Shown: positions 4,629 through 17,508 of the stretch, in pieces
Layout of the letters: each line of letters starts with the position of its first letter
How positions within the stretch are numbered: the first letter of the stretch is position 1
Assembly (NCBI GenBank): GCA_049968235.1
Contig: JBMFRC010000012.1
Location: forward strand, 33,366 to 97,365
Direction: 5' to 3'
Length of the DNA: 64,000 nucleotides
Source of the DNA: Candidatus Hydrogenedens sp.
GTDB taxonomy: Bacteria > Hydrogenedentota > Hydrogenedentia > Hydrogenedentales > Hydrogenedentaceae
Notes under the pieces: generated by a model
Told to the model about the DNA's origin: nothing
Databases searched by the model: none
The model's input: only the letters and a program-made list of their open reading frames with translations
Position numbers and translations under genes: made by a program

Positions 4629-4657
4629 TTGACAAGGAGTAAACAGTGTGCTATAAT
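4629..4657 (+). promoter_or_regulatory. Near-consensus sigma70 promoter (TTGACA-17nt-TATAAT) for rex-hydrogenase operon
   Basis: TTGACA at 4629-4634, a 17-nt spacer, and TATAAT at 4652-4657, lying 80 nt upstream of the rex ATG. Confidence 0.5.
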
Positions 4658-4675
4658 TTGTTCATAAATTCACAA
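4658..4675. promoter_or_regulatory. Rex operator-like inverted repeat 1 (TTGTTCATAAATTCACAA)
   Basis: An 18-nt palindrome-like site resembling the Rex box consensus TTGTGAAnnnnTTCACAA. It sits immediately after the -10 box, where a repressor would overlap the transcription start. Confidence 0.5.
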
Positions 4676-4701
4676 TTATACTTACAGGTAAGTATATAAA
4701 T

Positions 4702-4719
4702 TTGTTTGTAAATTCACAA
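4702..4719. promoter_or_regulatory. Rex operator-like inverted repeat 2 (TTGTTTGTAAATTCACAA)
   Basis: A second 18-nt site sharing the same half-sites (TTGT...TTCACAA), 26 nt downstream of site 1 and 18 nt before the rex ATG. Confidence 0.45.
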
Positions 4720-4736: not shown

Positions 4737-5432
4737 ATGGTATCTGAGAAAACAGTAGAAAGATTAAGTTTATACCGCCGAATACTTCAACAATTGAGGG
4801 TCGAGAGTAAAGAAACTATAATGTCCCATGAACTTGCGAATATGTTACACATAAAGCCAGCACAGGTACGCAGGGATATTATGCAATTAGGTTATTCAGG
4901 AATACCTAATAGTGGTTATAGAATTCGACCTCTTTTAGAGAGTATTGCAAATTTTTTAGATTCCCCGTTGCCTCAGAGTGCTGTTTTAGTAGGTGTTGGA
5001 CATTTAGGACTTGCGTTATTGGCTAACTTTGCAGGACGATGGAGGCAATTAGCTATTCGTGCCTCTTTTGATAAAGACCCTGCAAAAGTAGGACAGACTT
5101 TTCATGGTTGTCGTTGTTATGCTATGTGTGATTTGCAAAAAGTAATTGCGGAGACAAAAAGTGTAGTAGGCATCCTGGCAATACCGGGTGAAAGTGCCCA
5201 ATCTGTTTGTGACCTTCTTGTTCAGTCAGGTATTAGTGGCGTATTAAATTTTTCCCCATTGCGAATTAAAGTGCCTGATAATGTCTTTATAGAACATGTT
5301 GACCTTTCCGCTACGTTTGAAAAAGTTTCGTTCTTTGCAAGAAGAATGAAACATTATGCAGAAGAAGAAAAACGGAAAGTAGAAAATGAAATTACTGAGG
5401 GTGAATACGAAACATTAACAACCAATCAATAA
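4737..5432 (+). CDS. rex: Redox-sensing transcriptional repressor Rex (NADH/NAD+-responsive)
   Basis: N-terminal winged-helix with LSLYRRIL, then Rossmann GVGHLGLALLANF, then ILAIPGESAQSVCDLLVQSGISGVLNFSP. These are the canonical Rex blocks; the protein also has an acidic C-terminal tail. Confidence 0.85.
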   Translation: MVSEKTVERLSLYRRILQQLRVESKETIMSHELANMLHIKPAQVRRDIMQLGYSGIPNSGYRIRPLLESIANFLDSPLPQSAVLVGVGHLGLALLANFAGRWRQLAIRASFDKDPAKVGQTFHGCRCYAMCDLQKVIAETKSVVGILAIPGESAQSVCDLLVQSGISGVLNFSPLRIKVPDNVFIEHVDLSATFEKVSFFARRMKHYAEEEKRKVENEITEGEYETLTTNQ

Positions 5433-5458: not shown

Positions 5459-5983
5459 ATGAATGAAGAATCAAAGCATGCGTGTATGGAAGAAGCAAGT
5501 GAAGAAGAACTGCTTGCTCGGCTTGATGAAGTAATTGCAGAATATAAGGACAAGCCCGGTGCTCTTATTCCTGTTCTGCAGATTGCTCAGGCTATGTTTG
5601 GTTATCTACCCGAAAGTGCATTAAAAAAGATTAGTTTGGGACTGAACAAACCGTATAGTGAAGTTGCAGGTGTGGTAACATTTTACTCATTCTTTTCAAC
5701 CCAGCCTCGTGGAAAACATATGATTCGTGTCTGTTTAGGAACTGCTTGTTATGTCCGTGGTGGCAAACAGGTTCTTTCTGCAATTAAGGATAAACTCCAT
5801 ATTGATGTTGGAGAGACCACGAAAGACCGTATGTTCTCTTTAGAGGTGGCTCGTTGTTTTGGTGCTTGTGGGCTTGCTCCTGCCATTATGGTGGATAACG
5901 ATGTGCATCAACGGGTAAAACCTGCCCGAATTCAGGCTATTTTAGACCAGTATTTAGACAAAAACACAGAAAAAAATAAATAA
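5459..5983 (+). CDS. hndA: NuoE-like [2Fe-2S] subunit of multimeric [FeFe] hydrogenase (HndA/HydC-like)
   Basis: Thioredoxin-like 2Fe-2S fold with the Cys pattern CLGTACYVRGG ... CFGACGLAPA, typical of NuoE/HoxE/HydC. A good RBS (TAGGAGATAGAAT-ATG) precedes the start. Confidence 0.8.
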   Translation: MNEESKHACMEEASEEELLARLDEVIAEYKDKPGALIPVLQIAQAMFGYLPESALKKISLGLNKPYSEVAGVVTFYSFFSTQPRGKHMIRVCLGTACYVRGGKQVLSAIKDKLHIDVGETTKDRMFSLEVARCFGACGLAPAIMVDNDVHQRVKPARIQAILDQYLDKNTEKNK

Positions 5984-6005
5984 GAAATAAATAAGGAGAA
6001 AAGCC

Positions 6006-6377
6006 ATGTCAAATATTATTCATTCTCCAGAAGACCTTAATGCTTTACGAGAAAAGGCAATTAAGGACATTGAGATTCGTAATTCACATAAAGATTTGGT
6101 GATTACTGTTCACATGGGAACATGTGGTATTGCTGCGGGTGCCAGAGAAGTATTAAAAAATATCATCTCTGAAATTTCTGCTATAGGTATAACCAATGTT
6201 ACAGTCCGTCAATCTGGATGTGCAGGTCTCTGCGACCGTGAACCCATGATTACGGTTACTCATAAATCCTCCGGTTCTGAATATCGTTATGGAAAATTAA
6301 ACACGGAAAAGATACGAGAAATTGTGAAACAGCATATTGCAGAAGGTAAACCTGTGATGGAATATTTAATTTCCTGA
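6006..6377 (+). CDS. hndB: Thioredoxin-like [2Fe-2S] ferredoxin (HndB-like small hydrogenase subunit)
   Basis: 123 aa with cysteine motifs HMGTCGIAAGA and CAGLCDREP of 2Fe-2S Trx-like ferredoxins. It sits between the NuoE-like and NuoF-like genes, as in hnd operons. Confidence 0.7.
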   Translation: MSNIIHSPEDLNALREKAIKDIEIRNSHKDLVITVHMGTCGIAAGAREVLKNIISEISAIGITNVTVRQSGCAGLCDREPMITVTHKSSGSEYRYGKLNTEKIREIVKQHIAEGKPVMEYLIS

Positions 6378-6460
6378 TGAAGAAATACAGGGTAAATTCG
6401 GATTCCCATAAAGTGGTTGAGATGAACATGTATAGCAAAATAAGAAAGAATGATATAGAA

Positions 6461-7906
6461 ATGAAAATGAACATATTACATCTATTTCTTATTTTATTTT
6501 TATGTTCATCCGCAACCTTTACTGAAATATCTGATTGGGAAACCATCTCACTTTCGGATACAGGAGAAGCATTACAAAATCCCGGCATGGGATGGGTATT
6601 ACATTTTTACGATAATGTTCCTGAAAATTATGGTTCTAAATTAGCCCCTTCAGATACTGTTGATGAATTCCCTGCCCTTTCAGTTATTTATTTGCGAATA
6701 GCATGGTCGTTTTTAGAACCTGAAGAAGGAAAGTATAACTGGTCTATATTGGATACTCCTTCTCAACGATGGATTTCTAAAGGGAAACAAATTGCTTTGC
6801 GCATTACCTGTAGTGAAACTCCTATTCCATGGGCGACACCAAAATGGGTTTATGAAGCAGGAGCCAAAGGTAATTTCTTCATTCCTACCCAGGGGATAAA
6901 AGAAAATGGGACACATTGGGAACCCGAATTTGATGACCCTGTTTTCTTGGATAAGTTGGATAATTTTTTAGCAGTGTTAGCAAAGAGATATGATGAAAAT
7001 CCGGAAATAGCCTTCATAGATATGGGTTCATTAGGAGTGTGGGGAGAAGGTCATGTATGGCATTCCACACAAAAACATATTTCGACGGAAACCATAAAAA
7101 AACACATTGATTTGCACATAAAGCACTTTAAAAACACAATAATTGCTCTAAATGATGACCTTATCACAAATGGGCAAAAATTGGATGTAATTCCCGAAGA
7201 GAAAAAAGAACTCCTCAATTATGCTATCAAAAATGGGTTAACACTTCGCGATGATAGTATTCTTGTTCAGGGTGGAGATAATGTATATTTTAGTGCAAGC
7301 CTTGCGGAATACTTCTGGCGAAATAGACCTATCATTTTAGAATCTGAACATTATGGACCATCAAAGGCTGAAAGGCATTGGGGGGACGGAAGTAAATATT
7401 TACAGGCTGTAGAAGATTACCATGCAAGTTATACTTCTATTCATTGGTGGCCAAGGGAGTTTTTACAAGAAAACAAAGATTTGATAGATAAAATCAATCT
7501 TCGTTTGGGGTATCGTATTGTCCCTACCGAAGTTAAATGGCAAAAGACAGTAAAAATATCCGAGAAAAAATGGGATATATCCTACCGTTGGGCAAATAAA
7601 GGAGTGGCACCTTGTTATCGGGATGTATATCCCATTATTACATGGAAAGATGAGAAAGGAGGAATTGTTGCTGTTTTTACAGATGAGACATTTAATCTCA
7701 AACAATTACCAATAGGGAAGCAGGATGAATTAAAAGAAATTGAGGTAAAAAAATCTTTTTTTATTCCTTTTTTATTGAAAGAAGGAAATTATACAGTATT
7801 CATTTCAGCGGGTTCTATTACGGGCACGCCTGAAATTCAATTACCGTTAAACAACACAGACCATGAAAAAAGATATGTTATAGGTAAAGTTAATGTTGTT
7901 TTGTGA
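6461..7906 (+). CDS. Secreted TIM-barrel glycoside hydrolase-like protein (GH42/GH35-like N-terminal motif; DUF4832-like)
   Basis: Signal peptide MNILHLFLILFLCSSATF. AWSFLEPEEGKYNW matches the GH42/GH35 W-x-x-LEP-x-x-G-x-Y motif, and GSLGVWGEGH matches GH42-like blocks. The most likely start is internal, at the MKMNILH methionine at 6461. Confidence 0.5.
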   Translation: MKMNILHLFLILFLCSSATFTEISDWETISLSDTGEALQNPGMGWVLHFYDNVPENYGSKLAPSDTVDEFPALSVIYLRIAWSFLEPEEGKYNWSILDTPSQRWISKGKQIALRITCSETPIPWATPKWVYEAGAKGNFFIPTQGIKENGTHWEPEFDDPVFLDKLDNFLAVLAKRYDENPEIAFIDMGSLGVWGEGHVWHSTQKHISTETIKKHIDLHIKHFKNTIIALNDDLITNGQKLDVIPEEKKELLNYAIKNGLTLRDDSILVQGGDNVYFSASLAEYFWRNRPIILESEHYGPSKAERHWGDGSKYLQAVEDYHASYTSIHWWPREFLQENKDLIDKINLRLGYRIVPTEVKWQKTVKISEKKWDISYRWANKGVAPCYRDVYPIITWKDEKGGIVAVFTDETFNLKQLPIGKQDELKEIEVKKSFFIPFLLKEGNYTVFISAGSITGTPEIQLPLNNTDHEKRYVIGKVNVVL

Positions 7907-7977
7907 AAAAAAATATAAAGATATAAATAAAAACTTCAGAAATGAAGCATACACAAGTTATGGAAAGGAGAAAAAAA

Positions 7978-10900
7978 ATGAGTCCATTTCGAAGTCATGT
8001 ATTAATCTGTGCAGGTGCAGGATGCGTGGCATCAGGTTCGATGGAAGTAAGTTCCGCCTTTTCGGAGGCACTTGCCAAACATGGGCTAAATGAAGAAATT
8101 CAAGTAGTCCATACAGGATGTTTAGGACCCTGTGCTATTGGTCCCGTGGTCGTGATTTATCCAGATGCTATTTTTTATCAAGGTGTTAAAACAACAGATG
8201 TTGAAGATATTGTTGTTGAGCATCTGTTAAAAGGTCGGCCTGTTAGTCGCTTGAATTTCAAATCTACTACCACATCACAAATTATTCCTGCACTGCAGGA
8301 GATTGGTTTTTTCAAGCAACAGACAAAGATAGTTTTAAGGAACTGTGGTATTATAGACCCTACAAAAATTGAGGAGTATATTGCGAGAGATGGGTATCAG
8401 GCTTTAGCAAAAGTACTGACAAAAATGACTCCACAGCAGGTAGTAGAAGAAGTGAAAAAATCTGGACTTCGGGGAAGAGGTGGTGCAGGATTCCCAACAG
8501 GTATAAAGTGGGAGTTAACTCAAAAAGCCCACGGAGATAAGAAATATGTTCTTTGTAATGCTGATGAAGGTGACCCGGGCGCATTTATGGACAGAAGTGT
8601 TTTGGAAGGTGACCCCCATAGTGTTATTGAAGCTATGATTATAGCAGGATATGCCATTGGTTCTGACCAGGGATATATTTATGTTCGAGCAGAATATCCT
8701 TTAGCGGTAGAGAGATTAAATATAGCGATAAAGCAAGCCAGAGAATATGGTTTGTTAGGTAAGAATATTATGGGAACGAATTTTAATTTCGACCTTGAAA
8801 TACGAATGGGTTCAGGTGCTTTTGTGTGTGGAGAAGAAACCGCATTGATGCGTTCTATCGAAGGGAAACGCGGAGAACCCAGACCCCGTCCACCGTTCCC
8901 TGCATATAAAGGTTTATGGGAAAAACCCAGTTTATTAAATAATGTAGAAACCTATGCAAACATCCCTGTAATTATATTAAAAGGTGCTGATTGGTTTGCT
9001 TCCATAGGAACAGGTAAAAGTAAAGGAACAAAAGTGTTTGCCTTAGCAGGTGCTGTAAACAACACAGGATTGGTCGAAATTCCGATTGGTACACCATTAG
9101 GTGAAATTATTTATGATATTGGCGGTGGAATTCCGCGAGGCAAACAATTTAAGGCAGCGCAAATTGGAGGTCCTTCCGGCGGTTGTATTCCAAAACAACA
9201 TCTGAATGTGCCGGTAGATTACGAGTCATTACAGGAATTAGGAGCGATTATGGGTTCCGGTGGATTAATTGTTATGGATGAAGACACATGTATGGTCGAT
9301 ATGGCTCGTTTCTTCCTTGACTTTGTTCAGGATGAGTCATGTGGAAAATGTGTCCCATGCCGGGTCGGAACGAAAAGAATGTTGGAAATTGTGACAAGGA
9401 TTTGTGAGGGTCGGGGAGAAGAAGGCGATATTGAAAAACTTATTGAATTAGGACAACAGATTAAAGATGCATCGTTATGTGGATTAGGGCAGACAGCTCC
9501 AAACCCTGTTCTTTCTGCAATACGGCACTTCCGTGATGAATTTGAAATTCATATTCGTGAACATAAATGTCCGGCGGGTGTCTGTCCATCTCTTGTTCGT
9601 GCTCCTTGTATGAGTGCTTGCCCGGCAAATGTTTACATTCCGGGTTTTGTCTCATTAATATCTGAAAAACGATATGCGGAAGCACTTCGTGTGCATCGTG
9701 ACCAGAACCCCTTTGCATCTGTATGTGCCCGTGTGTGTTTCCATACTTGTGAGGACAAATGTAGAAGAGCTACTCTGGATGAAGCGGTATCCATACGCGG
9801 ATTGAAGCGATTTATGGTAGAGCAAGAAGTTACAATACAACTACCTGAAATTCGTGAAAATGAACAAAATCTTCGCAAAAAGGTGGCTATTATAGGAGCA
9901 GGTCCTGCAGGTCTAACCTGTGCTTATTTCCTTGCACGATTAGGCTATCAACCCCGTGTTTTTGAATCTGCACCCAGGCCCGGCGGTATGTTAGTTCAAA
10001 CAATTCCCGCTTATCGGTTACCCCGAGAAGAATTGGCTCGAGAAATTCGTATGATAGAAAGAATGGGCGTTGTCATAGAAACTGAAAAAGCCTTAGGTCG
10101 TGATTTTACATTACAAAGCCTTCGTGATGATGGATATGAGGCTATTTTTCTCGGAATAGGTGCTCCATCAGGTCAAAAATTGAGAATTCCAGGCGAAGAT
10201 GCGGATGGCGTTGTCGAAGCCATAGACTTCCTTCGTGAATACAATCTCCGTGGTTCTGTTCCTGTAGGGAAAAATGTTGTTATTATAGGAGGTGGTAATG
10301 CAGCTATTGATGCGGCAAGAACTGCCATTCGTTTAGGAGCAAAAAAAGCAACGATTCTTTACCGCAGAACAAGAGAAGAGATGCCTGCGTATAAAGAAGA
10401 GATCGAAGAAGCAGTTAATGAAGGTGTTATTTTAAAAATGTTAGTAACTCCACTGGAGATTTTGACAGAAAACGGAAAAGTTGTTGGTGTAAAATGTCAA
10501 CACATGTGGTTAGGAGAATATGACCGTTCCGGTAGAAGAAGACCTGAAGCCAAAAAGGGTGAAGAACCCTTTGTTGAAGAAGCAGACCAGGTTATTGCAG
10601 CAATAGGGCAAACTGTTGATTTAAAACGTTACCTGGATGGATTAAATGTTAAGTTAACACCTTCTGGTTTCTTGTGGGTAGACCAATTATATGGTCAGAC
10701 CTCTATTGAATGGTTATTTGCAGGTGGTGATATTAGTTCAGGTCCTTCTTCCGTAGCAGAAGCAATCGGTGCTGGTGAAAGAGCTGCAGTTGGAATTGAT
10801 AAGTATCTTACTGGAGAAGAACATGCTTTCTGGCGCGAACCCTATATGGTAGATACAGAATTTGACCCAGATTCCGACCCGGTAGATTTCCCAAGAGCAA

Positions 10901-11049
10901 AAATGAAACTTTTACCTGTTGAAAAGAGGGTACACAACTTTAATGAAGTTGAAATCCCGTTTACGGAAACATTAGCGGTAAGAGAGGCACGCCGTTGCTT
11001 ACGTTGTGATTATCGTGAAACAAAAATAAGTTTAAATACACAACAATAA
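7978..11049 (+). CDS. hndC: Fusion flavoprotein: HndC/HydB (NuoF-like, FMN/NADH, Fe-S) + GltD/NfnB-like FAD/NAD(P)H oxidoreductase domain
   Basis: The N-terminal Trx-like 2Fe-2S domain is CAGAGC...CLGPC. The NuoF blocks are GLRGRGGAGFPTGIKW, CNADEGDPGAF and 4Fe-4S CGKCVPCRVG. From about residue 540 come the GltD-like Fe-S region (CPAGVCP...CMSACP), FAD site VAIIGAGPAGLTCAY and NAD(P)H site VVIIGGGNAAIDAA. I chose the start at MSPFRSH (7978) because it has a GGAAAGGAG RBS. Confidence 0.8.
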   Translation: MSPFRSHVLICAGAGCVASGSMEVSSAFSEALAKHGLNEEIQVVHTGCLGPCAIGPVVVIYPDAIFYQGVKTTDVEDIVVEHLLKGRPVSRLNFKSTTTSQIIPALQEIGFFKQQTKIVLRNCGIIDPTKIEEYIARDGYQALAKVLTKMTPQQVVEEVKKSGLRGRGGAGFPTGIKWELTQKAHGDKKYVLCNADEGDPGAFMDRSVLEGDPHSVIEAMIIAGYAIGSDQGYIYVRAEYPLAVERLNIAIKQAREYGLLGKNIMGTNFNFDLEIRMGSGAFVCGEETALMRSIEGKRGEPRPRPPFPAYKGLWEKPSLLNNVETYANIPVIILKGADWFASIGTGKSKGTKVFALAGAVNNTGLVEIPIGTPLGEIIYDIGGGIPRGKQFKAAQIGGPSGGCIPKQHLNVPVDYESLQELGAIMGSGGLIVMDEDTCMVDMARFFLDFVQDESCGKCVPCRVGTKRMLEIVTRICEGRGEEGDIEKLIELGQQIKDASLCGLGQTAPNPVLSAIRHFRDEFEIHIREHKCPAGVCPSLVRAPCMSACPANVYIPGFVSLISEKRYAEALRVHRDQNPFASVCARVCFHTCEDKCRRATLDEAVSIRGLKRFMVEQEVTIQLPEIRENEQNLRKKVAIIGAGPAGLTCAYFLARLGYQPRVFESAPRPGGMLVQTIPAYRLPREELAREIRMIERMGVVIETEKALGRDFTLQSLRDDGYEAIFLGIGAPSGQKLRIPGEDADGVVEAIDFLREYNLRGSVPVGKNVVIIGGGNAAIDAARTAIRLGAKKATILYRRTREEMPAYKEEIEEAVNEGVILKMLVTPLEILTENGKVVGVKCQHMWLGEYDRSGRRRPEAKKGEEPFVEEADQVIAAIGQTVDLKRYLDGLNVKLTPSGFLWVDQLYGQTSIEWLFAGGDISSGPSSVAEAIGAGERAAVGIDKYLTGEEHAFWREPYMVDTEFDPDSDPVDFPRAKMKLLPVEKRVHNFNEVEIPFTETLAVREARRCLRCDYRETKISLNTQQ

Positions 11050-11066
11050 TAAAAGGAGAATAAGCC

Positions 11067-12839
11067 ATGCCAAAATTAACTATAGATGGAATTCCCGTAG
11101 AAGTTCCGGAAGGAACAACAATACTTCAAGCGGCAAAGCAAATAGGATTAAAAATACCGACACTTTGTTATCTTGAAGAAGTTCAAGCCATCGGTGCCTG
11201 TCGTGTTTGCGTTGTTGAAGTTGAAGGAGCACGAACTTTGGTCGCTTCTTGTGTTGCTCCTGTTGCGGAAGGAATGAAAGTCCATACAAATTCAAAAAGA
11301 GCCCGTGAGGCACGAAAAACAGTTGTAGAATTGTTACTATCCGACCATGATGGCGATTGCCAGATTTGTGTTCGAAATGAAGATTGTGAACTTCAGGAAT
11401 TGGCACGAACACTTGGGATAAAGGAAATTCGCTATCAAGGTGAGAAGAGAAAACGGATTGTGGATGAAAGCACTCCCGCTGTTGTTCGTGATACATCGAA
11501 ATGTGTCTTATGTAGAAGATGTATAACGGTTTGCAATGAGGTTCAGGGTGTTGGCGGACTGTTCCCACAAAATCGTGGCTTTGAAACGGTAATAGGTCCC
11601 GCATTTTGTAGTGATTTGGATGATGTCGTATGTGTTCAGTGTGGTCAATGTAGTGCGGTTTGTCCTGTGGGTGCTATTGTAGAAAGAGACCAGATTGCGG
11701 ATGTCTTTTCTGCATTAGATGACCCGACAAAAACAGTCGTTGTCCAGACAGCCCCTGCAATTCGTGCCGCATTGGGAGAATGTTTTGGTTTACCACCCGG
11801 AACTTTAGTAACAGGGAAGATGGTTACCGCACTTCGTAGACTGGGTTTCCATGCCGTTTTTGATACTAACTTTGCCGCTGACCTTTGTATTATGGAAGAA
11901 GGTACAGAACTGCTAACTCGATTGAAGAAAAAACTGGTAGATGGGGAGAATATTGCTCTTCCTATGTTTACCAGTTGTTCTCCGGGGTGGATTAAGTTTT
12001 TAGAACATTTCTACCCGGATATGATTCCAAATGTATCTACATGCAAATCCCCACAGCAAATGTTTGGTGCTATAGCAAAGACCTATTATTCCAAGAAAAT
12101 TGGTAAGAAACCCGAAGATATTGTTGTTGTTTCTATTATGCCCTGTACAGCGAAGAAATATGAACATCAGCGTCCCGAGATGAACAGTTCCGGTGTTCGT
12201 GATGTGGACTATGTGCTTACAACGCGTGAATTGGGTCGGATGATAAAACAGGCAGGCATTGATTTTGTAAATCTACCCGATGACAAGCAAGACTCACCAT
12301 TAGGACTATCCTCTGGTGCTGCGGATATTTTTGCGAATACCGGGGGTGTTATGGAAGCGGCAATTCGAACTGTTTATGAAATAGTAACAGGACGCGAATT
12401 ACCATTCGATGGACTTCATGTTGCTCCTATCGAAGGATTAGAAGGAATCAAGGAAGCCTCCTTGAAGATAGAAAAATGTGTGCCTGAATGGTCTTTCTTA
12501 GAAGGGGCTACCGTAAATGTTGCTGTGGCTCATGGATTGGGTAATGCCAGAGCATTAATAGAGCGAGTTCGCTCAGGTGAAAAGGCGTATCACTTTATAG
12601 AAATTATGACCTGTCCCGGTGGATGTATTGGTGGAGGAGGACAACCTCGCTTTACAGATAATTCAGTTCGTCTTGCTCGTATTCAGGCCATATACAAAGA
12701 GGATGAAGGGAAACAACTTCGTAAGTCCCATGTAAATCCTGACATACAAAAATTGTATAAGGAATTTTTAGGACATCCGAATAGTGAAGTTTCACATCAT
12801 CTATTACATACGCATTACAATCCGAGAACAAAAGTATAA
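11067..12839 (+). CDS. hydA: [FeFe]-hydrogenase catalytic subunit (HydA/HndD) with N-terminal 2Fe-2S and 4Fe-4S ferredoxin domains; non-canonical L1 motif TSCSPGW
   Basis: The N-terminal plant-type 2Fe-2S is CYLEE...CRVC, and the 4Fe-4S Fd motifs are CVLCRRCITVC and CVQCGQCSAVCP. For the H-cluster, L2 is MPCTAKKYE and L3 is EIMTCPGGCIGGGGQP, both canonical. L1 reads FTSCSPGW where TSCCPxW is expected. Confidence 0.9.
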   Translation: MPKLTIDGIPVEVPEGTTILQAAKQIGLKIPTLCYLEEVQAIGACRVCVVEVEGARTLVASCVAPVAEGMKVHTNSKRAREARKTVVELLLSDHDGDCQICVRNEDCELQELARTLGIKEIRYQGEKRKRIVDESTPAVVRDTSKCVLCRRCITVCNEVQGVGGLFPQNRGFETVIGPAFCSDLDDVVCVQCGQCSAVCPVGAIVERDQIADVFSALDDPTKTVVVQTAPAIRAALGECFGLPPGTLVTGKMVTALRRLGFHAVFDTNFAADLCIMEEGTELLTRLKKKLVDGENIALPMFTSCSPGWIKFLEHFYPDMIPNVSTCKSPQQMFGAIAKTYYSKKIGKKPEDIVVVSIMPCTAKKYEHQRPEMNSSGVRDVDYVLTTRELGRMIKQAGIDFVNLPDDKQDSPLGLSSGAADIFANTGGVMEAAIRTVYEIVTGRELPFDGLHVAPIEGLEGIKEASLKIEKCVPEWSFLEGATVNVAVAHGLGNARALIERVRSGEKAYHFIEIMTCPGGCIGGGGQPRFTDNSVRLARIQAIYKEDEGKQLRKSHVNPDIQKLYKEFLGHPNSEVSHHLLHTHYNPRTKV

Positions 12840-12858
12840 GATAAGATTTAATAATAAA

Positions 12859-12964: not shown

Positions 12965-13360
12965 ATGGAAAATAAAATTATAATGGTCGTTGATGATGAT
13001 ATTGATGTTCAGGATTTCTGTAAAATTGTATTAGGAAGAGAGGATTATCAGGTTATAACATTTTCCAACTCAGAGAGTGCACTCGAATATTTATCGTCGA
13101 ACACTCCCTCTGTAATTATTACCGATTTAATGATGGGTGGAATTGATGAGGGTGTCCAATTTGTTAATAAGATTAGAGGATTCGATAATGAGAAGGCAAA
13201 AATTCCAATTATAATGATTACAGGCATAAATTCAAAATTAGGATATGACATCACTCCCCGTTCCGATGAAGAAAAAAAACAAATGAAAATCGATGAATTT
13301 ATATCAAAACCTTTAAATCCAAAACAGTTAATAACAGCACTAAAAAAAGTAATCAAATAG
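12965..13360 (+). CDS. Single-domain response regulator (CheY-like receiver only)
   Basis: 131 aa with acidic pocket VVDDD, a phospho-acceptor in SVIITDLMMGG and a conserved K in FISKP. There is no output domain. Confidence 0.75.
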   Translation: MENKIIMVVDDDIDVQDFCKIVLGREDYQVITFSNSESALEYLSSNTPSVIITDLMMGGIDEGVQFVNKIRGFDNEKAKIPIIMITGINSKLGYDITPRSDEEKKQMKIDEFISKPLNPKQLITALKKVIK

Positions 13361-13412: not shown

Positions 13413-14810
13413 ATGAGTTCAAATGTAGAAACTGTTCCTATTAATGAGGAATTTATTTTTGATACTTTAAAAAATAGTGTCAAGAAAGATGCGGTTTACA
13501 TCAAAGAAATTCTTGCAAAAGCCCTTGAATTAAAGGGATTAGATGCGACAGAAGTAGCCACGCTTGCAACAATAAGTGACCCTGACCTGTTAAAAGAACT
13601 TTTCGATACAGCCCGAAAAGTCAAAGAGGAGATTTACGGTAAACGATTAGTTCTTTTTGCCCCACTTTATGTATCAAATCTTTGCAAGAATGAATGCTTA
13701 TATTGTGCTTTCCGTAAAAGTAACAAGATGGTTCGTAGAAAAGCATTGACACAAGAAGAAGTCCGTAGAGAGGTTGAAACATTGGTTGACCAGGGGCATA
13801 AACGCATTCTATTAGTGGCAGGCGAGTCCTATCCTTCCGAAGGATTTGATTATGTTATTCATTGTATCGAAACAATATATAGTGTAAAGCGGGATAGGGG
13901 AGAGATACGACGCGTAAATGTGAATATAGCACCCTTATCGTTAGAGGAATTTAAAAGGCTGAAATCAGCAAAAATTGGGACATATCAGTTATTTCAAGAA
14001 ACATACCACAGAGAAACATACCAAAAAGTCCATGTAGGTGGACTTAAAAAGGATTTTGACTGGAGAATTACCGCTATGGACCGTGCTATGAAAGCTGGCA
14101 TTGATGATGTGGGTGTTGGCGTTCTTTTTGGCTTATTTGATTGGAGATTTGAAATACTTGCTTTAATGCAACATATTAAACATTTAGAAGATACCTTCGG
14201 TGTAGGATGTCACACGATAAGTGTACCTCGCCTTGAACCTGCTATAGGTTCAGACCTGGCTTCACATCCCCCTTATCCGGTATCAGACCTTGATTTCAGA
14301 AAAATTGTAGCTATACTAAGACTTGCTGTGCCCTATACAGGAATAATAATGTCCACTCGTGAAACTCCCAATATACGAAGAGAAACCTTTGCACTGGGTG
14401 TATCACAAATATCAGCAGGCAGTAGAACGAATCCAGGTGGGTATACAGGCAGTGAAGAAGAGGATATGAGCCAATTCTCATTAGGTGACCATCGCAGTCT
14501 GGATGAGGTTATTCGTGATGTTACAAAATTAGGTTATATCCCATCCTTCTGCACGGCTTGTTATCGTTTAGGCAGAACAGGTGCTGACTTTATGGACCTT
14601 GCCAAGCCGGGTCTTATCAAGAACCATTGTGAAGTTAATGCTTTAAGCACTTTTGCTGAATATCTGGAAGATTATGCATCCTCCGAAACAAAACAAATAG
14701 GTTGGGCAAAGATTGAGGAAATTTTAAATACAATGCCTGAAGTTCGGAAAAAACGTACCGAAGGGATGTTGGCTCGTGTAAAAGCCGGTGAACGGGATGT
14801 ATATGTGTAA
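13413..14810 (+). CDS. hydG: [FeFe]-hydrogenase maturase HydG (radical SAM tyrosine lyase)
   Basis: The radical SAM motif is CKNECLYCAF. The C-terminal auxiliary-cluster motif CTACYR...(22)...HC (Cx2Cx22C) separates HydG from ThiH. A length of about 465 aa fits. Confidence 0.9.
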   Translation: MSSNVETVPINEEFIFDTLKNSVKKDAVYIKEILAKALELKGLDATEVATLATISDPDLLKELFDTARKVKEEIYGKRLVLFAPLYVSNLCKNECLYCAFRKSNKMVRRKALTQEEVRREVETLVDQGHKRILLVAGESYPSEGFDYVIHCIETIYSVKRDRGEIRRVNVNIAPLSLEEFKRLKSAKIGTYQLFQETYHRETYQKVHVGGLKKDFDWRITAMDRAMKAGIDDVGVGVLFGLFDWRFEILALMQHIKHLEDTFGVGCHTISVPRLEPAIGSDLASHPPYPVSDLDFRKIVAILRLAVPYTGIIMSTRETPNIRRETFALGVSQISAGSRTNPGGYTGSEEEDMSQFSLGDHRSLDEVIRDVTKLGYIPSFCTACYRLGRTGADFMDLAKPGLIKNHCEVNALSTFAEYLEDYASSETKQIGWAKIEEILNTMPEVRKKRTEGMLARVKAGERDVYV

Positions 14811-14815
14811 ATCTT

Positions 14816-16237
14816 ATGTCAGACTACCGAATTGAAACCGACTTATTGGGTGAAAAAAAGATACCTGCGGATGTCTATTGGGGTATACATACTGCTCGTG
14901 CAGTAGAAAATTTTCCTGTTTCCCGACTCTCGGTTCATTCAGAATTAATCCAATCTTATGGAATTGTAAAACTTGCATGTGCAAAAATAAATTATTCGTT
15001 AGGATACTTATTACATCCTCCTGATAAATCATCTGCCATATTTAACGCTTGCGAAGAAGTAGCAATTGGTAAATGGAATGACCATATTATCGTGGATGCT
15101 CTACAGGGTGGAGCAGGAACCAGCACAAATATGAATATTAATGAGGTTATTGCCAACCGTGCCCTAGAAATATTGGGCTTACCACGGGCAAAATATGACA
15201 TTATTTCCCCATTAGATGATATAAATCTTCACCAATCGACTAACGATACTTATCCTACCGCCCTGAAACTTGCTACGATAAGGATGTTAAGAAAATTAGA
15301 ATCAGAAATTATTCTTCTTTTAGAGACATTTCAAACACTTGAAAAACAATTTTCGGACATAGTAAAAATTGGAAGGACAGAACTTCAAGATGCAACGCCT
15401 ATTACATTAGGTAGGGAGATGGGTGCTTATGCAGATGCCCTAGTAAGAGACCGTTGGCGTATCTATAAGTGTGAAGAAAGATTGCGAGTAGTTAATTTAG
15501 GAGGCACCGCAATAGGAACAGGTTTAGGAGCACCAAGGGATTATATTTTCCGTGTTGTAGATAATCTGCGAGAGTTATCAAATATCGGTTTTTCGCGAGC
15601 AGAAAATTTAGTAGATGCAACTCAAAATCTCGATGTATTTGGGGAAGTATCAGGTATCATTCGTTCCTATGCCATAACGCTTAATAAAATAGCCAATGAT
15701 TTGAGACTAATGTCATCCGGACCCGAAGCAGGTCTCCGTGAAATTCAACTTCCACAATTACAAGCGGGTTCATCTATTATGCCAGGGAAAGTGAACCCTG
15801 TTTTGCCTGAAGCGGTATGCCAGGTTGCAATGCTAACATTTGGATTCGACCAGATTATCACATATGGCTGTTCTTCCGGAAACCTTGAACTAAATCCTTT
15901 TGTCCCTTTGATTGCTCATTGTTTGTTAAATATGATTGAAATGTTAACAAATGTAACAAAATTATTTACGGAAAAATGTATTAAAGGAATTTCGCCGAAC
16001 CGAGAGGTTTGTGTTTCCTATGTGAATAATTCTACAGCAACTCTAACCGCACTTATACAGAAGATAGGATATGAAAAAGCATGTATGATTGCTAAAAAAA
16101 CAAGTAATTTGAAAAAGAGTATTCGAGAAATTGTATTGGAAGAAGGAGTTTTGACTCCTGAAGAATTTGATACTCTTTTAAGTCCTGAGTCCGTTTGTAA
16201 ATTAGGATTTGTTGACACCAGTAATGAGATAGATTAG
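14816..16237 (+). CDS. aspA: Aspartate ammonia-lyase (aspartase/fumarase class II family) homolog embedded in hyd maturase cluster
   Basis: RIETDLLGEKKIPADVYWGIHTARAVENF, QGGAGTSTNMNINEVIAN and the signature GSSIMPGKVNP match aspartase closely and are closer to AspA than to FumC. Confidence 0.8.
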   Translation: MSDYRIETDLLGEKKIPADVYWGIHTARAVENFPVSRLSVHSELIQSYGIVKLACAKINYSLGYLLHPPDKSSAIFNACEEVAIGKWNDHIIVDALQGGAGTSTNMNINEVIANRALEILGLPRAKYDIISPLDDINLHQSTNDTYPTALKLATIRMLRKLESEIILLLETFQTLEKQFSDIVKIGRTELQDATPITLGREMGAYADALVRDRWRIYKCEERLRVVNLGGTAIGTGLGAPRDYIFRVVDNLRELSNIGFSRAENLVDATQNLDVFGEVSGIIRSYAITLNKIANDLRLMSSGPEAGLREIQLPQLQAGSSIMPGKVNPVLPEAVCQVAMLTFGFDQIITYGCSSGNLELNPFVPLIAHCLLNMIEMLTNVTKLFTEKCIKGISPNREVCVSYVNNSTATLTALIQKIGYEKACMIAKKTSNLKKSIREIVLEEGVLTPEEFDTLLSPESVCKLGFVDTSNEID

Positions 16238-16246
16238 GAAGGAAAT

Positions 16247-17500: not shown

Positions 17501-17508
17501 AATAAAAC

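What the first reader, a model, noticed from the sequence alone, without database searches (positions are those of the whole stretch)
7978..11049. Hydrogenase flavoprotein subunit fused to an NfnB/GltD-like NAD(P)H:FAD oxidoreductase (1023 aa)
I can read every cofactor-binding motif in this one polypeptide. It has a Trx-like 2Fe-2S and a NuoF-like module with FMN/NADH sites and 4Fe-4S (GRGGAGFPTG, CGKCVPCRVG). Fused to that is a complete GltD-like module with a two-cluster Fe-S region (CPAGVCP...CMSACP), FAD (VAIIGAGPAGLTCAY) and NAD(P)H (VVIIGGGNAAIDAA) sites. By established knowledge, GltD-like modules are the NADPH-binding halves of NfnAB and of Sporomusa-type Stn transhydrogenases, whereas HydB/HndC normally end in ferredoxin-like domains. 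A covalent HydB-NfnB fusion inside an hndA-hndB-...-hydA operon therefore suggests a hydrogenase that couples H2 to both NAD(H) and NADP(H), possibly by bifurcation. That is inference, not shown by the sequence.
Basis: partly seen in the sequence, partly recalled or inferred. Interest (0 to 1): 0.75.

Follow-up and report, generated by a model that had tools for sequence, protein, structure and literature searches.

The report
Hydrogenase subunit fused to NADPH module
A real, widely conserved gene in a Candidatus Hydrogenedens genome encodes the flavoprotein subunit of an [FeFe]-hydrogenase in which an NADPH-binding flavoprotein module replaces the usual ferredoxin-docking end; this layout was already described in 2018 and 2024 but has never been tested biochemically.

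Summary
ORF 7978-11049 encodes a 1023-aa protein made of a HydB/BfuB-type core joined without a linker to a GltD-like module. The core has an N-terminal [2Fe-2S] domain, the FMN/NADH site, a [4Fe-4S] cluster and the Cys/His hinge site. The GltD-like module has two [4Fe-4S] clusters, FAD and an NAD(P)H site.

It is not a frameshift artefact. The identical protein is in NCBI (MGC8738806.1, Ca. Hydrogenedens sp.). More than 120 full-length homologues share a gapless junction. Sixty-two complete fused genes were found in over 15 phyla.

The neighbouring HydA keeps its H-cluster motifs, and hydG, hydF and hydE follow.

The architecture is already published as "sub-type I BfuB" of Hydrogenedentota (Zheng & Huang 2024) and as a HydB with a GltD domain in Vallitalea (2018). 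I found no biochemistry and no solved structure.

This analysis adds three points:
- The module is the circularly permuted, Lys-ligated type of StnC/NfnA (Nfn-Bfu), not the NfnB type.
- It replaces exactly the B3/B4 ferredoxin-like domain.
- The same fused subunit also partners formate-dehydrogenase-like and HdrA-like subunits.

Most likely function (inferred): a ferredoxin-independent hydrogenase that couples H2 to both NAD(H) and NADP(H) through the Bfu core.

The parts
4629..4657 (+). Sigma-70-type promoter, TTGACA-17-TATAAT with TG extension, upstream of rex
   Evidence: It is the only 12/12 match in 4400-19200. This is a consensus match only.
4658..4719 (+). Two Rex-operator-like sites: TTGTTCATAAATTCACAA (4658-4675) and TTGTTTGTAAATTCACAA (4702-4719)
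   Evidence: They have 2 and 3 mismatches to TTGTGAAnnnnTTCACAA. The window-wide count is not above chance. However, both sites lie within 80 nt upstream of rex, and the same tandem pair occurs upstream of rex in L081 and L001.
4737..5432 (+). rex, the redox-sensing (NADH/NAD+) transcriptional repressor
   Evidence: NCBIfam Rex subfamily NF003995, 192 bits against a cut-off of 126. Pfam Put_DNA-bind_N plus CoA_binding.
5459..5983 (+). hndA/hydC/bfuC: NuoE-like subunit with a thioredoxin-like [2Fe-2S] domain (cluster C1)
   Evidence: Pfam 2Fe-2S_thioredx, 1.9e-51, full length. NCBIfam NuoE/HoxE models. Its four Cys are visible in the sequence.
6006..6377 (+). hndB/bfuD: small thioredoxin-like subunit
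   Evidence: Weak 2Fe-2S_thioredx match of 24.4 bits, just below the cut-off of 24.8. It has three conserved Cys plus a conserved His (HMGTCG...SGCxGLC) in 28 homologues. Present upstream of 17 of the 62 complete fused genes.
6377..7906 (+). Inserted gene within the operon: a secreted-looking GH42/DUF4832-like protein of 509 aa. Probably not part of the enzyme.
   Evidence: Pfam DUF4832 and Glyco_hydro_42. N-terminal hydrophobic segment, and the start overlaps the hndB stop. Found only in close Ca. Hydrogenedens relatives (L001, L081, L082). Absent in L083 and in other phyla.
7978..11049 (+). The fused flavoprotein gene (hndC/hydB/bfuB::gltD-like), 1023 aa
   Evidence: AF2 model with pLDDT 86.6 and pTM 0.80.
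7978..8262 (+). N-terminal thioredoxin-like [2Fe-2S] domain (cluster B5; C11, C16, C48, C52)
   Evidence: Pfam 2Fe-2S_thioredx over 6-79. The Cys are conserved in 114-118 of 121 sequences.
8335..9567 (+). NuoF-like core: FMN/NADH site (GRGGAGFPTG), SLBB domain, and the [4Fe-4S] cluster B1 (C455, C458, C461, C501)
   Evidence: Gapless alignment to A. mobile HydB 7t2r_B residues 2-541, 840 bits. The Cys are invariant.
9550..9585 (+). Hinge segment H525-C536, which with C438 and C476 forms the BfuB-specific B2 ([2Fe-2S] or Zn) site
   Evidence: The positions coincide with the published B2 ligands C438, C476, H525, C531 and C536 of A. mobile HydB. They are conserved in the 121 close homologues, with one exception at position 438 (R in one sequence). 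In the 62 diverse fusions four are invariant and position 476 is Cys, Thr, Ser or Val.
9598..9837 (+). Fe-S region of the GltD-like module: C544, C548, C583, C587, C591, C595, and K610 as the presumed ligand of the FAD-proximal [4Fe-4S]
   Evidence: Pfam Fer4_20 profile positions 23-108. K610 aligns to StnC K170. All are invariant in 121 sequences.
9877..10812 (+). FAD (GAGPAG) and NAD(P)H (GGGNAAID...YRR) Rossmann domains
   Evidence: Pfam Pyr_redox_2 over 634-933. The motif 'ILYRRTREEMPA' matches the NADPH-using Csac NfnA, StnC and NfnB. YRR is invariant in the 62 fusions.
10903..11010 (+). C-terminal permuted segment ending in EARRCLRCD (C1007, C1010), which completes the two-cluster domain
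   Evidence: It aligns to the N-terminus of T. maritima NfnB (4ylf_B 8-43), and contiguously to StnC and Csac NfnA. Moving it in front of the module extends the Fer4_20 match from profile 29-108 (83.9 bits) to 1-108 (98.8 bits). pLDDT about 89-93.
11067..12839 (+). hydA/hndD/bfuA: M3-type [FeFe]-hydrogenase catalytic subunit with an intact H-cluster domain
   Evidence: NCBIfam FeFe_hydrog_A6, 907 bits against a cut-off of 765. Pfam Fer2_4, NADH-G_4Fe-4S_3, Fe_hyd_lg_C (1.1e-98) and Fe_hyd_SSU. Motifs P1 TSCSPGW (302), P2 MPCTAK (358) and P3 EIMTCPGGCIGG (512). Closest solved structures are A. woodii and T. kivui HydA1.
12965..13360 (+). Stand-alone response-regulator receiver protein
   Evidence: Pfam Response_reg, 6.5e-19. 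Its role was not examined.
13413..18561 (+). H-cluster maturation genes hydG (13413-14810), an aspA-like lyase (14816-16237), hydF (16247-17500) and hydE (17509-18561)
   Evidence: NCBIfam scores and cut-offs: HydG 540 against 312, AspA subfamily 629 against 510, HydF 557 against 326, HydE 331 against 255.

Best explanation
What it is (shown). This is the flavoprotein (B) subunit of a multimeric HydABC/HndABCD-type [FeFe]-hydrogenase of a Candidatus Hydrogenedens bacterium. The complete BfuB core is kept: the N-terminal [2Fe-2S] B5 domain, the FMN/NADH site, the [4Fe-4S] cluster B1 and the Cys/His hinge site B2. The C-terminal ferredoxin-like domain that carries clusters B3 and B4 is replaced. 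In solved Bfu enzymes that domain receives low-potential electrons and docks ferredoxin. Eight residues after the last hinge ligand, a circularly permuted GltD-like module begins. It carries two [4Fe-4S] clusters (the FAD-proximal one Lys-ligated), FAD and an NADPH-type dinucleotide site.

How it most likely works (inferred). Electrons from H2 pass from the H-cluster through the HydA clusters and B1 to the FMN. One pair leaves as hydride to NAD+. The other pair takes the route that normally leads to ferredoxin: the mobile [2Fe-2S] domain of HndA, then the clusters at the hinge. In this enzyme that route enters the two [4Fe-4S] clusters of the GltD module and ends on FAD, which reduces NADP+.

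The net reaction would be 2 H2 + NAD+ + NADP+ <-> NADH + NADPH + 2 H+, reversible and without ferredoxin. The FMN-based Bfu centre would do the coupling. The FAD would be an ordinary two-electron/one-electron converter, as in StnC.

During fermentation, the more reducing NADPH pool would help pull H2 formation from NADH. In the uptake direction, H2 would charge the NADPH pool.

The operon is probably controlled by Rex, and so by the NADH/NAD+ ratio.
For: Architecture:
- Domain scans.
- Gapless 840-bit alignment to A. mobile HydB up to residue 541, with the B1, B2 and B5 ligands and A202/M204 in place.
- In solved HydB structures the alignment ends at about 540-545, where their ferredoxin-like domain begins.
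- The junction is gapless and linker-free in 121 sequences.

The missing domain is the ferredoxin branch. Cryo-EM of Tsi NfnABC places ferredoxin 12.8 A from B3/B4 of the BfuB Fd-like domain. That domain hangs on the hinge that bears the B2/Zn site.

The module is an NADPH-oxidising, non-bifurcating type:
- Its best matches are Csac NfnA, StnC and Tsi NfnA (407, 365 and 342 bits), ahead of NfnB (291) and GltD (200). Foldseek gives the same order.
- It has the same circular permutation.
- K610 equals StnC K170 and Tsi NfnA K165, whereas bifurcating NfnB/NfnL has Glu.
- The FAD in StnC was shown experimentally not to bifurcate.
- The 'YRRTREEMPA' loop is identical in type to these NADPH enzymes and invariant in the 62 fusions.

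Only one Fe-S chain leaves the FAD, and no NfnA/NfnS-like partner was seen among the genes examined in the window.

A real hydrogenase is attached. HydA has motifs P1-P3, and hydG, hydF and hydE lie downstream. Of the 62 complete fusions, 34 are followed by an H-cluster HydA.

The fusion is inherited as a unit. Cofactor ligands are conserved across more than 15 phyla, and NJ trees of the two halves are broadly congruent.

The model is confident: pTM 0.80, with the junction and C-terminal tail well predicted.

Energetics are plausible. NADH alone (-280 mV) equilibrates at about 3 Pa H2. NADH plus NADPH (mean -330 mV) equilibrates at about 145 Pa.

Rex gene and Rex-like boxes sit at the promoter.
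Against: - No activity, cofactor or structural data exist for any member. The stoichiometry, the coupling and even NADPH versus NADH specificity at the FAD site are inferences from homology.
- At standard potentials NAD and NADP are isopotential, so bifurcation is not energetically required. The argument rests on assumed in vivo pool potentials.
- Whether the first GltD cluster lies within electron-transfer distance of the HndA C1 cluster or the hinge site could not be measured, because the tools return no coordinates.
- The proximal-cluster environment is a hybrid. It has Lys as in StnC but keeps the NfnB-like Cys583, and it lacks StnC's C114 (Ile/Val here). Its redox tuning may therefore differ from both.
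- NCBI's family name for the HydA partner is 'NADH-dependent, group A6'.
- HydA carries Ser at the position of the proton-relay Cys. The effect on catalysis is unknown.
Confidence: 0.42

Rival explanations
1. Uncoupled dual-specificity hydrogenase. The FMN site (NADH) and the FAD site (NADPH) are two independent entry or exit ports wired to the same H-cluster. The enzyme makes or uses H2 with either nucleotide without obligatory coupling. The Bfu-type hinge, B5 and HndA features would be inherited remnants.
For: - NAD and NADP have the same standard potential, so no thermodynamic need for bifurcation exists.
- Non-bifurcating NADH-dependent HydAB(C) enzymes exist and work at low H2.
- NCBIfam names the HydA family 'NADH-dependent'.
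- The same fused subunit is combined with several different catalytic partners, as expected for a generic nucleotide-coupling module.
Against: - An ungated wire between the two sites would act as an energy-dissipating NADPH:NAD+ transhydrogenase.
- Published non-bifurcating HydB homologues lack B2-B5 and the hinge His. Here these are kept in the 121 close homologues. In the 62 diverse fusions the hinge His and three of the four other B2 ligands are invariant, while the B5 Cys are lost in some members. This suggests selection on the gating apparatus.
Confidence: 0.27
2. Second, FAD-based bifurcation centre, as proposed by Zheng & Huang 2024. The GltD FAD itself bifurcates as in NfnAB, giving an enzyme with two bifurcating sites and probably a further, unseen partner such as ferredoxin.
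For: - The module is homologous to bifurcating NfnB/NfnL (291 bits; Foldseek 5jca_L).
- R680 aligns with NfnB R201.
- An NfnB-like Cys583 is retained.
- The idea is put forward in the literature.
Against: - The proximal cluster has Lys, not the Glu of NfnB/NfnL. Lys is the hallmark of the StnC/NfnA modules, whose FAD was shown not to bifurcate.
- A bifurcating flavin needs two exits. Only one Fe-S chain is encoded, and no NfnA/NfnS-like subunit lies in the operon.
- The canonical ferredoxin-docking domain is absent.
Confidence: 0.08
3. The GltD-like module serves something other than NADP(H). It could be a second NADH site, a link to glutamate synthase or glutamate metabolism (as suggested for Vallitalea), or a sulfide-dehydrogenase-like polysulfide or other acceptor activity.
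For: - GltD-family modules occur in glutamate synthase, dihydropyrimidine dehydrogenase, SudA and AegA/YgfK-type enzymes (NCBIfam hit list).
- Schouw et al. speculated on a glutamate link.
- Nucleotide specificity was not measured.
Against: - No gltB or other large-subunit gene lies in the operon or among the window genes examined.
- The module is far closer to the NADPH-oxidising modules of NfnABC/Stn than to GltD (407 against 200 bits).
- The YRR loop shared with the NADPH enzymes is invariant.
Confidence: 0.1
4. Artefact: two adjacent genes (hydB and a gltD-like gene) joined by a sequencing or assembly error.
For: None found.
Against: - The identical 1023-aa protein occurs in independent assemblies.
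- More than 120 full-length homologues share a gapless junction.
- Sixty-two complete fusions occur in over 15 phyla.
- The module's cluster-binding domain needs both the junction segment and the C-terminal tail.
- The single-chain model is confident.
Confidence: 0.01

Closest known systems
'Sub-type I' BfuABC(D) [FeFe]-hydrogenases of Hydrogenedentota (Zheng & Huang, mSystems 2024, PMC11406978)
   Same: The same phylum and the same gene order (C-D-B-A). The BfuB has its B3/B4 domain replaced by a DPD_II (Fer4_20) domain plus an FAD/NAD(P) domain. The HydA is M3a type with Ser in P1. The type is also reported in Planctomycetota, Verrucomicrobiota, Kiritimatiellota and Spirochaetota. The window gene is a member of this group.
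   Different: Nothing architectural. That paper proposes a possible second FAD bifurcation centre. The residue-level comparison here (Lys ligand, permuted Stn-type module, single exit chain) argues against that. The GH-like gene inserted between hndB and the fused gene was not looked for in that paper.
Electron-bifurcating HydABC/BfuABC hydrogenases (A. woodii 7q4v, T. kivui 8a6t, T. maritima 7p5h; A. mobile NiFe-HydABCSL 7t2r)
   Same: HydB core: 837-840 bits and up to about 64-70% identity over residues 2-541, with the B1, B2 and B5 ligands and the FMN/NADH site. HndA equals HydC. HydA is closest to A. woodii and T. kivui HydA1.
   Different: The C-terminal 2x[4Fe-4S] ferredoxin-like domain (B3/B4), which is the ferredoxin branch, is absent. 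A roughly 480-aa FAD/NADPH module replaces it.
StnABC / NfnABC (Nfn-Bfu) transhydrogenases (S. ovata 8oh5, C. saccharolyticus 9bov, T. sibiricus 9n5u)
   Same: They have the same kind of GltD-like module: circularly permuted, Lys-ligated proximal cluster, NADPH-type loop, 40-45% identity. It is combined with a BfuBC-type core.
   Different: There the module is inserted in the HydA-like A subunit, which has lost its H-cluster. It feeds mid-potential electrons to the FMN, and BfuB keeps its ferredoxin domain. Here the module sits on the B subunit in place of the ferredoxin domain, and the A subunit is a true hydrogenase. StnC C114 is Ile/Val here, and an NfnB-like Cys583 is present.
NfnAB / NfnSL (T. 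maritima 4ylf/4yry, P. furiosus 5jca)
   Same: The large subunit NfnB/NfnL has a homologous FAD/NADPH module with two [4Fe-4S] clusters (about 290 bits).
   Different: The topology is canonical, not permuted. The proximal cluster is ligated by Glu, not Lys. The FAD bifurcates and needs the NfnA/NfnS partner, which was not seen among the genes examined here.
HndABCD of Solidesulfovibrio (Desulfovibrio) fructosovorans
   Same: A four-gene layout of NuoE-like HndA, small HndB, NuoF-like HndC and hydrogenase HndD. This comparison is from my own knowledge of the system. The window shows the same order.
   Different: By established knowledge HndC ends in a 2x[4Fe-4S] domain and the enzyme uses ferredoxin plus NAD. 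Here the C-terminus is the GltD module. No direct sequence comparison with Hnd was run.
Non-bifurcating NADH-dependent HydAB(C) of Syntrophomonas wolfei and Syntrophus aciditrophicus
   Same: A multimeric [FeFe]-hydrogenase that lacks the B3/B4 ferredoxin domain and is ferredoxin-independent. The HydA here hits the NCBIfam 'NADH-dependent, group A6' model.
   Different: Those HydB subunits lack B2-B5 and the hinge His and have no FAD module. S. aciditrophicus HydAB does not reduce NADP+.
Trimeric hydrogenase peg.3894-3896 of Vallitalea guaymasensis L81 (Schouw et al. 2018, PMC6163223)
   Same: [quoted passage not shown] Firmicutes members of the fused family were recovered here.
   Different: The sequence was not compared directly. 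That enzyme is trimeric, with no HndB.

Membership tests
Bfu family sensu Schut et al. 2022 (BfuABC) | BfuB with an FMN/NADH site and the [4Fe-4S] cluster B1 | tested here: met
   Complex1_51K and NADH_4Fe-4S domains. C455, C458, C461 and C501 are invariant.
Bfu family sensu Schut et al. 2022 (BfuABC) | B2 site: two Cys, one Cys/Thr, one His and one Cys spanning the B1 motif. The His is absent from non-bifurcating homologues. | tested here: met
   C438, C476, H525, C531 and C536 lie at the published positions. H525 is invariant in 121 and in 62 sequences.
Bfu family sensu Schut et al. 2022 (BfuABC) | N-terminal [2Fe-2S] B5 in BfuB, and C1 [2Fe-2S] in BfuC | tested here: met
   Pfam 2Fe-2S_thioredx in the fusion (6-79) and in HndA (23-165). 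The Cys are conserved.
Bfu family sensu Schut et al. 2022 (BfuABC) | C-terminal ferredoxin-like domain with the [4Fe-4S] clusters B3 and B4 (IPR017896), the ferredoxin-reducing branch | tested here: not met
   No Fer4-type dicluster domain is found. The alignment to solved BfuB chains stops at about 540-545, and Fer4_20 plus Pyr_redox_2 follow. By the strict published definition it is therefore a variant and not a canonical member.
Bfu family sensu Schut et al. 2022 (BfuABC) | Catalyses ferredoxin- and NAD-dependent bifurcation | not testable with these tools
   This needs enzymology. None was found in the literature.
Sub-type I BfuABC(D) of Hydrogenedentota (Zheng & Huang 2024) | BfuB in which B3/B4 are replaced by DPD_II (Fer4_20) plus a C-terminal FAD/NAD(P) domain | tested here: met
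Sub-type I BfuABC(D) of Hydrogenedentota (Zheng & Huang 2024) | Gene cluster bfuC-(bfuD)-bfuB-bfuA with an M3a HydA, in a Hydrogenedentota genome | tested here: met
   The order is hndA-hndB-[inserted ORF]-fusion-hydA. The protein is NCBI MGC8738806.1 from Ca. Hydrogenedens sp.. P1 has Ser, as reported for this sub-type.
Stn / Nfn-Bfu transhydrogenases (StnABC, NfnABC) | GltD-like NADPH/FAD module with a Lys-ligated proximal [4Fe-4S] | tested here: met
   K610 aligns to StnC K170. It is invariant in 121 sequences and present in 61 of 63 in the diverse set, which is the query plus the 62 fusions.
Stn / Nfn-Bfu transhydrogenases (StnABC, NfnABC) | The module sits in the HydA/NuoG-like A subunit, which lacks an H-cluster, and BfuB retains the ferredoxin-like domain | tested here: not met
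   The module is in the B subunit. The A subunit has motifs P1-P3 and the Fe_hyd_lg_C domain.
NfnAB / NfnSL | Canonical (non-permuted) N-terminal two-cluster domain with a Glu-ligated proximal cluster | tested here: not met
   The topology is permuted. Lys stands at the Glu position.
NfnAB / NfnSL | NfnA/NfnS partner (FNR-like, [2Fe-2S] plus FAD) encoded alongside | tested here: not met
   No such gene was found among the window genes scanned. The rest of the genome was not seen.
Non-bifurcating NADH-dependent [FeFe]-hydrogenase (S. wolfei / S. aciditrophicus type; NCBIfam 'group A6' naming) | HydB lacking clusters B2-B5 | tested here: not met
   The B2 and B5 ligands are present.
Non-bifurcating NADH-dependent [FeFe]-hydrogenase (S. 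wolfei / S. aciditrophicus type; NCBIfam 'group A6' naming) | HydA scores above the NCBIfam NF040763 cut-off | tested here: met
   907 bits against a cut-off of 765. This tests only the family of the catalytic subunit, not the coupling.
[FeFe]-hydrogenase, group A (catalytically competent) | H-cluster motifs P1 (TSCxPxW), P2 (MPCxxKK) and P3 (ExMxCxxGCxxG), plus the maturases HydE, HydF and HydG | tested here: met
   P1 carries Ser305 instead of the usual second Cys.

The most novel reading that the evidence does not exclude
A ferredoxin-free, flavin/Fe-S-based bifurcating hydrogenase whose two outputs are both pyridine nucleotides: 2 H2 + NAD+ + NADP+ <-> NADH + NADPH + 2 H+. The Bfu FMN centre would split electron pairs between the oxidised NAD pool and the reduced NADP pool. 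The enzyme would then be a hydrogenase and an energy-conserving transhydrogenase in one complex.

The same fused B subunit is also found beside formate-dehydrogenase-like and HdrA-like A subunits. This would define a whole, uncharacterised branch of 'NAD/NADP-coupled' Bfu enzymes spread over more than 15 phyla.
Probability: 0.35. Interest if true: 0.75.

Novelty: already known. Interest (0 to 1): 0.4.

Why it matters
If the inferred reaction is right, this family links H2 metabolism directly to the NADPH pool without ferredoxin.

- It would change how redox balance and H2 thresholds are modelled for Hydrogenedentota, Planctomycetota, Kiritimatiellota, Spirochaetota, Syntrophales and many Firmicutes. 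The H2 ceiling would be about 145 Pa for NADH plus NADPH, against about 3 Pa for NADH alone.
- It is a natural experiment for the disputed Bfu mechanism. The low-potential branch ends in a two-electron hydride acceptor that can be followed optically, instead of in ferredoxin.
- Current genome annotation hides the family. The protein is simply called 'NuoF', and the hydrogenase is called 'NADH-dependent'.

As a discovery claim it carries little weight, because the architecture is already in print. The open problem is biochemical.

Tried and rejected
1. Frameshift or assembly artefact. Rejected.
2. 'NfnB-type' origin of the module. Rejected in favour of the Stn/Nfn-Bfu type on bit scores, the permutation and the Lys ligand.
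3. A search for biochemical or structural characterisation of a HydB-GltD hydrogenase. Five full-text searches (a sixth failed on syntax) and a Foldseek search of the PDB found only genomic descriptions. No solved chain covers both halves (best TMq 0.52).
4. Losey et al. 2020 was checked for a GltD-bearing HydB class. It has none.
5. Rex operator. The window-wide count of matches is not above chance. Only the position and the conservation of the tandem pair upstream of rex give it weight. No Rex-like site lies directly upstream of the fused gene or in most other phyla.
6. Intrinsic terminator after hydA. There is a strong hairpin at 12859-12882, but no T-run on the + strand. The operon end was left undecided.
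7. An attempt to see whether solved bifurcating HydA1 proteins also carry Ser in P1. The alignments printed were of other hydrogenases, so this is unresolved.
8. The genome scan's figure of 596 relatives cannot be read as a count of fusions, because the search patterns lie in the NuoF part. Only the 80 retrieved loci were evaluated.

Full report
**1.

The window has an uninterrupted + strand ORF ending at 11049. An AAGGAG ribosome-binding site lies just upstream. Homologues of 1013-1023 aa align from residue 2, so 7978 is the right start, not the ATG at 7942.

Pfam finds, in order:
- 2Fe-2S_thioredx, residues 6-79
- Complex1_51K, 159-330
- SLBB, 354-402
- NADH_4Fe-4S, 441-525
- Fer4_20, 535-617
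- Pyr_redox_2, 634-933

NCBIfam matches NuoF models over 127-526 and GltD-like models (PRK12771, PRK12814) over about 494-1013.

**2. It is not an artefact**

- The identical protein is NCBI MGC8738806.1. It is annotated only as 'NuoF' and comes from a Candidatus Hydrogenedens sp. MAG. It belongs to a 27-member 90% cluster assembled independently from several sources.
- The large protein database returns more than 120 full-length homologues at 71-98% identity with the same Pfam set.
- In an alignment of these, the junction ...H525-x5-C531-PAGV-C536-x7-C544-xxx-C548-P... has no gap in any of 121 sequences. The cofactor ligands are conserved throughout, with one exception at position 438.

**3. 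The surrounding genes**

| Coordinates | Gene |
|---|---|
| 4737-5432 | rex |
| 5459-5983 | NuoE-like hndA/bfuC |
| 6006-6377 | small hndB/bfuD |
| 6377-7906 | secreted-looking GH42/DUF4832-like ORF |
| 7978-11049 | the fused gene |
| 11067-12839 | hydA |
| 12965-13360 | response-regulator receiver |
| 13413-14810 | hydG |
| 14816-16237 | aspA-like lyase |
| 16247-17500 | hydF |
| 17509-18561 | hydE |

HydA scores 907 bits on NCBIfam FeFe_hydrog_A6 (cut-off 765). It has the H-cluster motifs TSCSPGW, MPCTAK and EIMTCPGGCIGG. Its closest solved relatives are the HydA1 subunits of the bifurcating A. woodii and T. kivui enzymes. The fused protein is therefore the B subunit of a real, maturable [FeFe]-hydrogenase.

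A perfect TTGACA-17-TATAAT promoter lies at 4629-4657. Two Rex-operator-like sites follow it directly, upstream of rex. The tandem pair recurs in two related loci.

**4. Anatomy of the N-terminal half**

[quoted passage not shown] They align almost as well to A. woodii HydB (7q4v_B, 837 bits).

Published numbering therefore transfers directly. The five ligands of the BfuB-specific B2 site are C438, C476, H525, C531 and C536, and all are present. So are the B1 cysteines, the N-terminal B5 cysteines, and A202/M204 of the Bfu signature. The published F182 could not be mapped.

According to Schut et al., the hinge His and clusters B2-B5 are missing from non-bifurcating homologues.

The alignment to every solved BfuB ends at about 540-545, exactly where their 2x[4Fe-4S] ferredoxin-like domain begins. 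That domain (B3/B4) hangs on the B2/Zn hinge. It receives electrons from the mobile [2Fe-2S] domain of BfuC, and in the Tsi NfnABC structure it lies 12.8 A from bound ferredoxin. It is the one piece of the Bfu core that is missing here.

**5. Anatomy of the C-terminal half**

Residues 541-1011 match, in order:

| Bits | Match |
|---|---|
| 407 | GltD-like module inside C. saccharolyticus NfnA (9bov_A 101-567) |
| 365 | S. ovata StnC (8oh5_C 101-569) |
| 342 | T. sibiricus NfnA |
| about 290 | T. maritima NfnB and P. furiosus NfnL |
| 200 | Glutamate synthase small subunit |
| 173 | Dihydropyrimidine dehydrogenase |

Three features tie it to the Stn/Nfn-Bfu type rather than to NfnB.

(a) Circular permutation. 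The segment '...NFNEVEIPFTETLAVREARRCLRCD' (residues 976-1011) aligns to the N-terminus of NfnB (4ylf_B 8-43). [quoted passage not shown] I cut residues 966-1012 and pasted them in front of residues 542-965. The Fer4_20 match then grew from profile positions 29-108 (83.9 bits) to 1-108 (98.8 bits).

(b) Lys ligand. K610 aligns with StnC K170 and Tsi NfnA K165, the Lys ligand of the FAD-proximal cluster. Bifurcating NfnB/NfnL has Glu there. K610 is invariant in 121 close homologues and is present in 61 of the 63 sequences of the diverse set, that is the query plus the 62 fusions.

(c) NADPH-type loop. The dinucleotide loop 'GGGNAAIDAA...ILYRRTREEMPA' is of the same type as in these NADPH-oxidising enzymes. 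YRR is invariant in the diverse set.

There are also differences from StnC. The C114 position is Ile/Val here, and an NfnB-like Cys583 is kept. R680 equals StnC R239 and NfnB R201, and it is uninformative from sequence alone.

An AF2 model has pLDDT 86.6 and pTM 0.80, with the junction and the C-terminal tail confidently predicted. Foldseek finds BfuB chains for the N half and 9bov_A, 8oh5_C, 9n5u_A and 5jca_L for the C half. No solved chain covers both halves (best TMq 0.52).

**6. Distribution**

I scanned one genome per species with an alignment spanning the junction and kept the 80 best loci. Junction-spanning matches came from:
- Hydrogenedentota, Planctomycetota, Verrucomicrobiota and Kiritimatiellota (including cultured Pontiella sulfatireligans F21)
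- Spirochaetota, Bacteroidota, Armatimonadota and Chloroflexota
- Bacillota (including Ca. Dichloromethanomonas)
- Syntrophales/Smithella and other Thermodesulfobacteriota
- Aminicenantes, Omnitrophota and others

Sixty-two loci hold a complete fused ORF of 982-1047 aa:
- 34 are followed by a HydA with H-cluster motifs. Of these, 31 have TSCSPGW.
- 18 are followed by a NuoG-like protein without an H-cluster.
- 10 end at a contig edge.

The non-hydrogenase partners examined are molybdopterin (formate-dehydrogenase-like) proteins or Pyr_redox_2/HdrA-like proteins.

The Fe-S, Lys, Arg and YRR positions are conserved throughout. The few exceptions are the B5 Cys and position 583 in some non-hydrogenase-linked members, and position 476, which varies among Cys, Thr, Ser and Val.

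NJ trees of the two halves recover the same major clades. These are rough trees without support values. The pattern fits an old fusion that has since been inherited and transferred as a unit.

At 50% clustering, about 13 representative clusters among the best 150 cover both halves.

**7. What is already known**

- Zheng & Huang (mSystems 2024) catalogued Hydrogenedentota hydrogenases and defined 'sub-type I BfuABC'. It is the sub-type in which the B3/B4 domain of BfuB is replaced by DPD_II plus an FAD/NAD(P) domain. They noted relatives in Spirochaetota, Planctomycetota, Verrucomicrobiota, Kiritimatiellota and Syntrophus gentianae. They speculated about a second, FAD-based bifurcation centre.
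- Schouw et al. [quoted passage not shown]
- Schut et al. (2022) selected BfuB sequences by InterPro domains that include the ferredoxin-type 4Fe-4S domain IPR017896. The main text does not mention a GltD-bearing BfuB. Such proteins would probably not have passed that filter, which is my inference.
- I found no enzymology.

The finding is therefore a correct re-discovery of a published, uncharacterised architecture.

**8. Mechanism (inference)**

In solved Bfu enzymes, mid-potential electrons reach the FMN via B1. One pair leaves as hydride to NAD+. The other pair leaves via the swinging C1 domain to B3/B4 and ferredoxin.

Here everything up to the hinge is conserved. Immediately after the hinge, the two-cluster domain of an NADPH:FAD module takes the place of B3/B4. 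The simplest reading is that the 'ferredoxin branch' now ends in FAD and NADP(H): 2 H2 + NAD+ + NADP+ <-> NADH + NADPH + 2 H+.

Three observations argue that the FAD is a plain 2e/1e converter rather than a second bifurcation site:
- The proximal cluster has Lys, not Glu.
- The module is closest to modules whose FAD was shown not to bifurcate.
- There is only one exit chain and no NfnA-like partner.

I used commonly assumed in vivo potentials: NAD about -280 mV (abstract of Schut et al.) and NADP about -380 mV (my own knowledge). NADH alone equilibrates with about 3 Pa H2, and NADH plus NADPH with about 145 Pa. Coupling would therefore extend fermentative H2 release, or let moderate H2 charge the NADPH pool.

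The main rival is an uncoupled two-port enzyme. The other rivals are given in the rival-explanations section.

**9. Verdict**

The thing is already known as a genomic type. Interest is moderate, because it is a widespread and biochemically blank variant of a much-debated enzyme family.

Noticed in passing
window 6377-7906 (+): A 509-aa ORF with a signal-peptide-like N-terminus and GH42/DUF4832 hits sits inside the hydrogenase operon, between hndB and the fused gene. Its start overlaps the hndB stop. The same insertion occurs in the closest Ca. Hydrogenedens relatives (L001, L081, L082). It is absent from a 79%-identical relative (L083) and from other phyla. Why a secreted glycoside-hydrolase-like gene is embedded in a cytoplasmic redox operon is unexplained.
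   Followed up: partly
window 4629-4719 (+): A perfect sigma-70 promoter (TTGACA-17-TATAAT) is followed by two Rex-operator-like sites just upstream of rex. The tandem pair is conserved in L081 and L001. This suggests autoregulated, NADH-responsive control of the operon.
   Followed up: partly
window 11970-11990 (HydA residues 302-308): The HydA P1 motif is TSCSPGW. Ser305 occupies the position of the second Cys of 'FTSCCP' in D. desulfuricans hydrogenase and HDCR HydA2. By established knowledge that Cys is the proton-relay residue next to the H-cluster. Of the 34 HydA partners of fused B subunits, 31 carry Ser. Zheng & Huang report Ser as common in four of their five sub-types.
   Followed up: partly
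window 14816-16237 (+): An aspartate-ammonia-lyase-family gene (NCBIfam 629 bits) lies between hydG and hydF. AspA-like genes also sit beside hyd maturase genes in L031, L051 and L052. This hints at a conserved association with H-cluster maturation.
   Followed up: no
loci L024, L035, L042, L047, L059, L062, L065, L068, L071, L075: The same fused NuoF-GltD subunit is followed not by a hydrogenase but by molybdopterin (formate-dehydrogenase-like) or Pyr_redox_2/HdrA-like NuoG-type subunits. Several of these ORFs stop at about 650 aa, possibly at selenocysteine codons. I did not find these partnerships in the papers I read.
   Followed up: partly
proteins P0212, P0221, P0229, P0235, P0251, P0253, P0267; P0223, P0226: Proteins of about 630-660 aa match only query residues about 407-1013, which is the NADH_4Fe-4S domain, the hinge and the GltD module without the FMN domain. 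Stand-alone permuted GltD modules of about 490-530 aa also exist. These suggest split or precursor forms of the fusion. NCBIfam PRK12771 likewise starts its match at residue 494.
   Followed up: no
window 6006-6377 (HndB-like): The small HndB/BfuD-like subunit has only three Cys (HMGTCG...SGCxGLC) plus a conserved His in 28 homologues. A few homologues lack even these Cys. Whether it binds a [2Fe-2S] cluster is unclear.
   Followed up: partly
window 12859-12882: A strong GC-rich hairpin (GGGGAGTG-N8-CACTCCCC) lies 20 nt after the hydA stop. The T-run is on the minus strand only. It may mark the end of the rex-hydA transcription unit.
   Followed up: no
window 23603-26404 and 33509-36031 (+): Two GH38 alpha-mannosidase-family genes, and other glycan-related genes, lie downstream. 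This fits a polysaccharide-degrading heterotroph.
   Followed up: no
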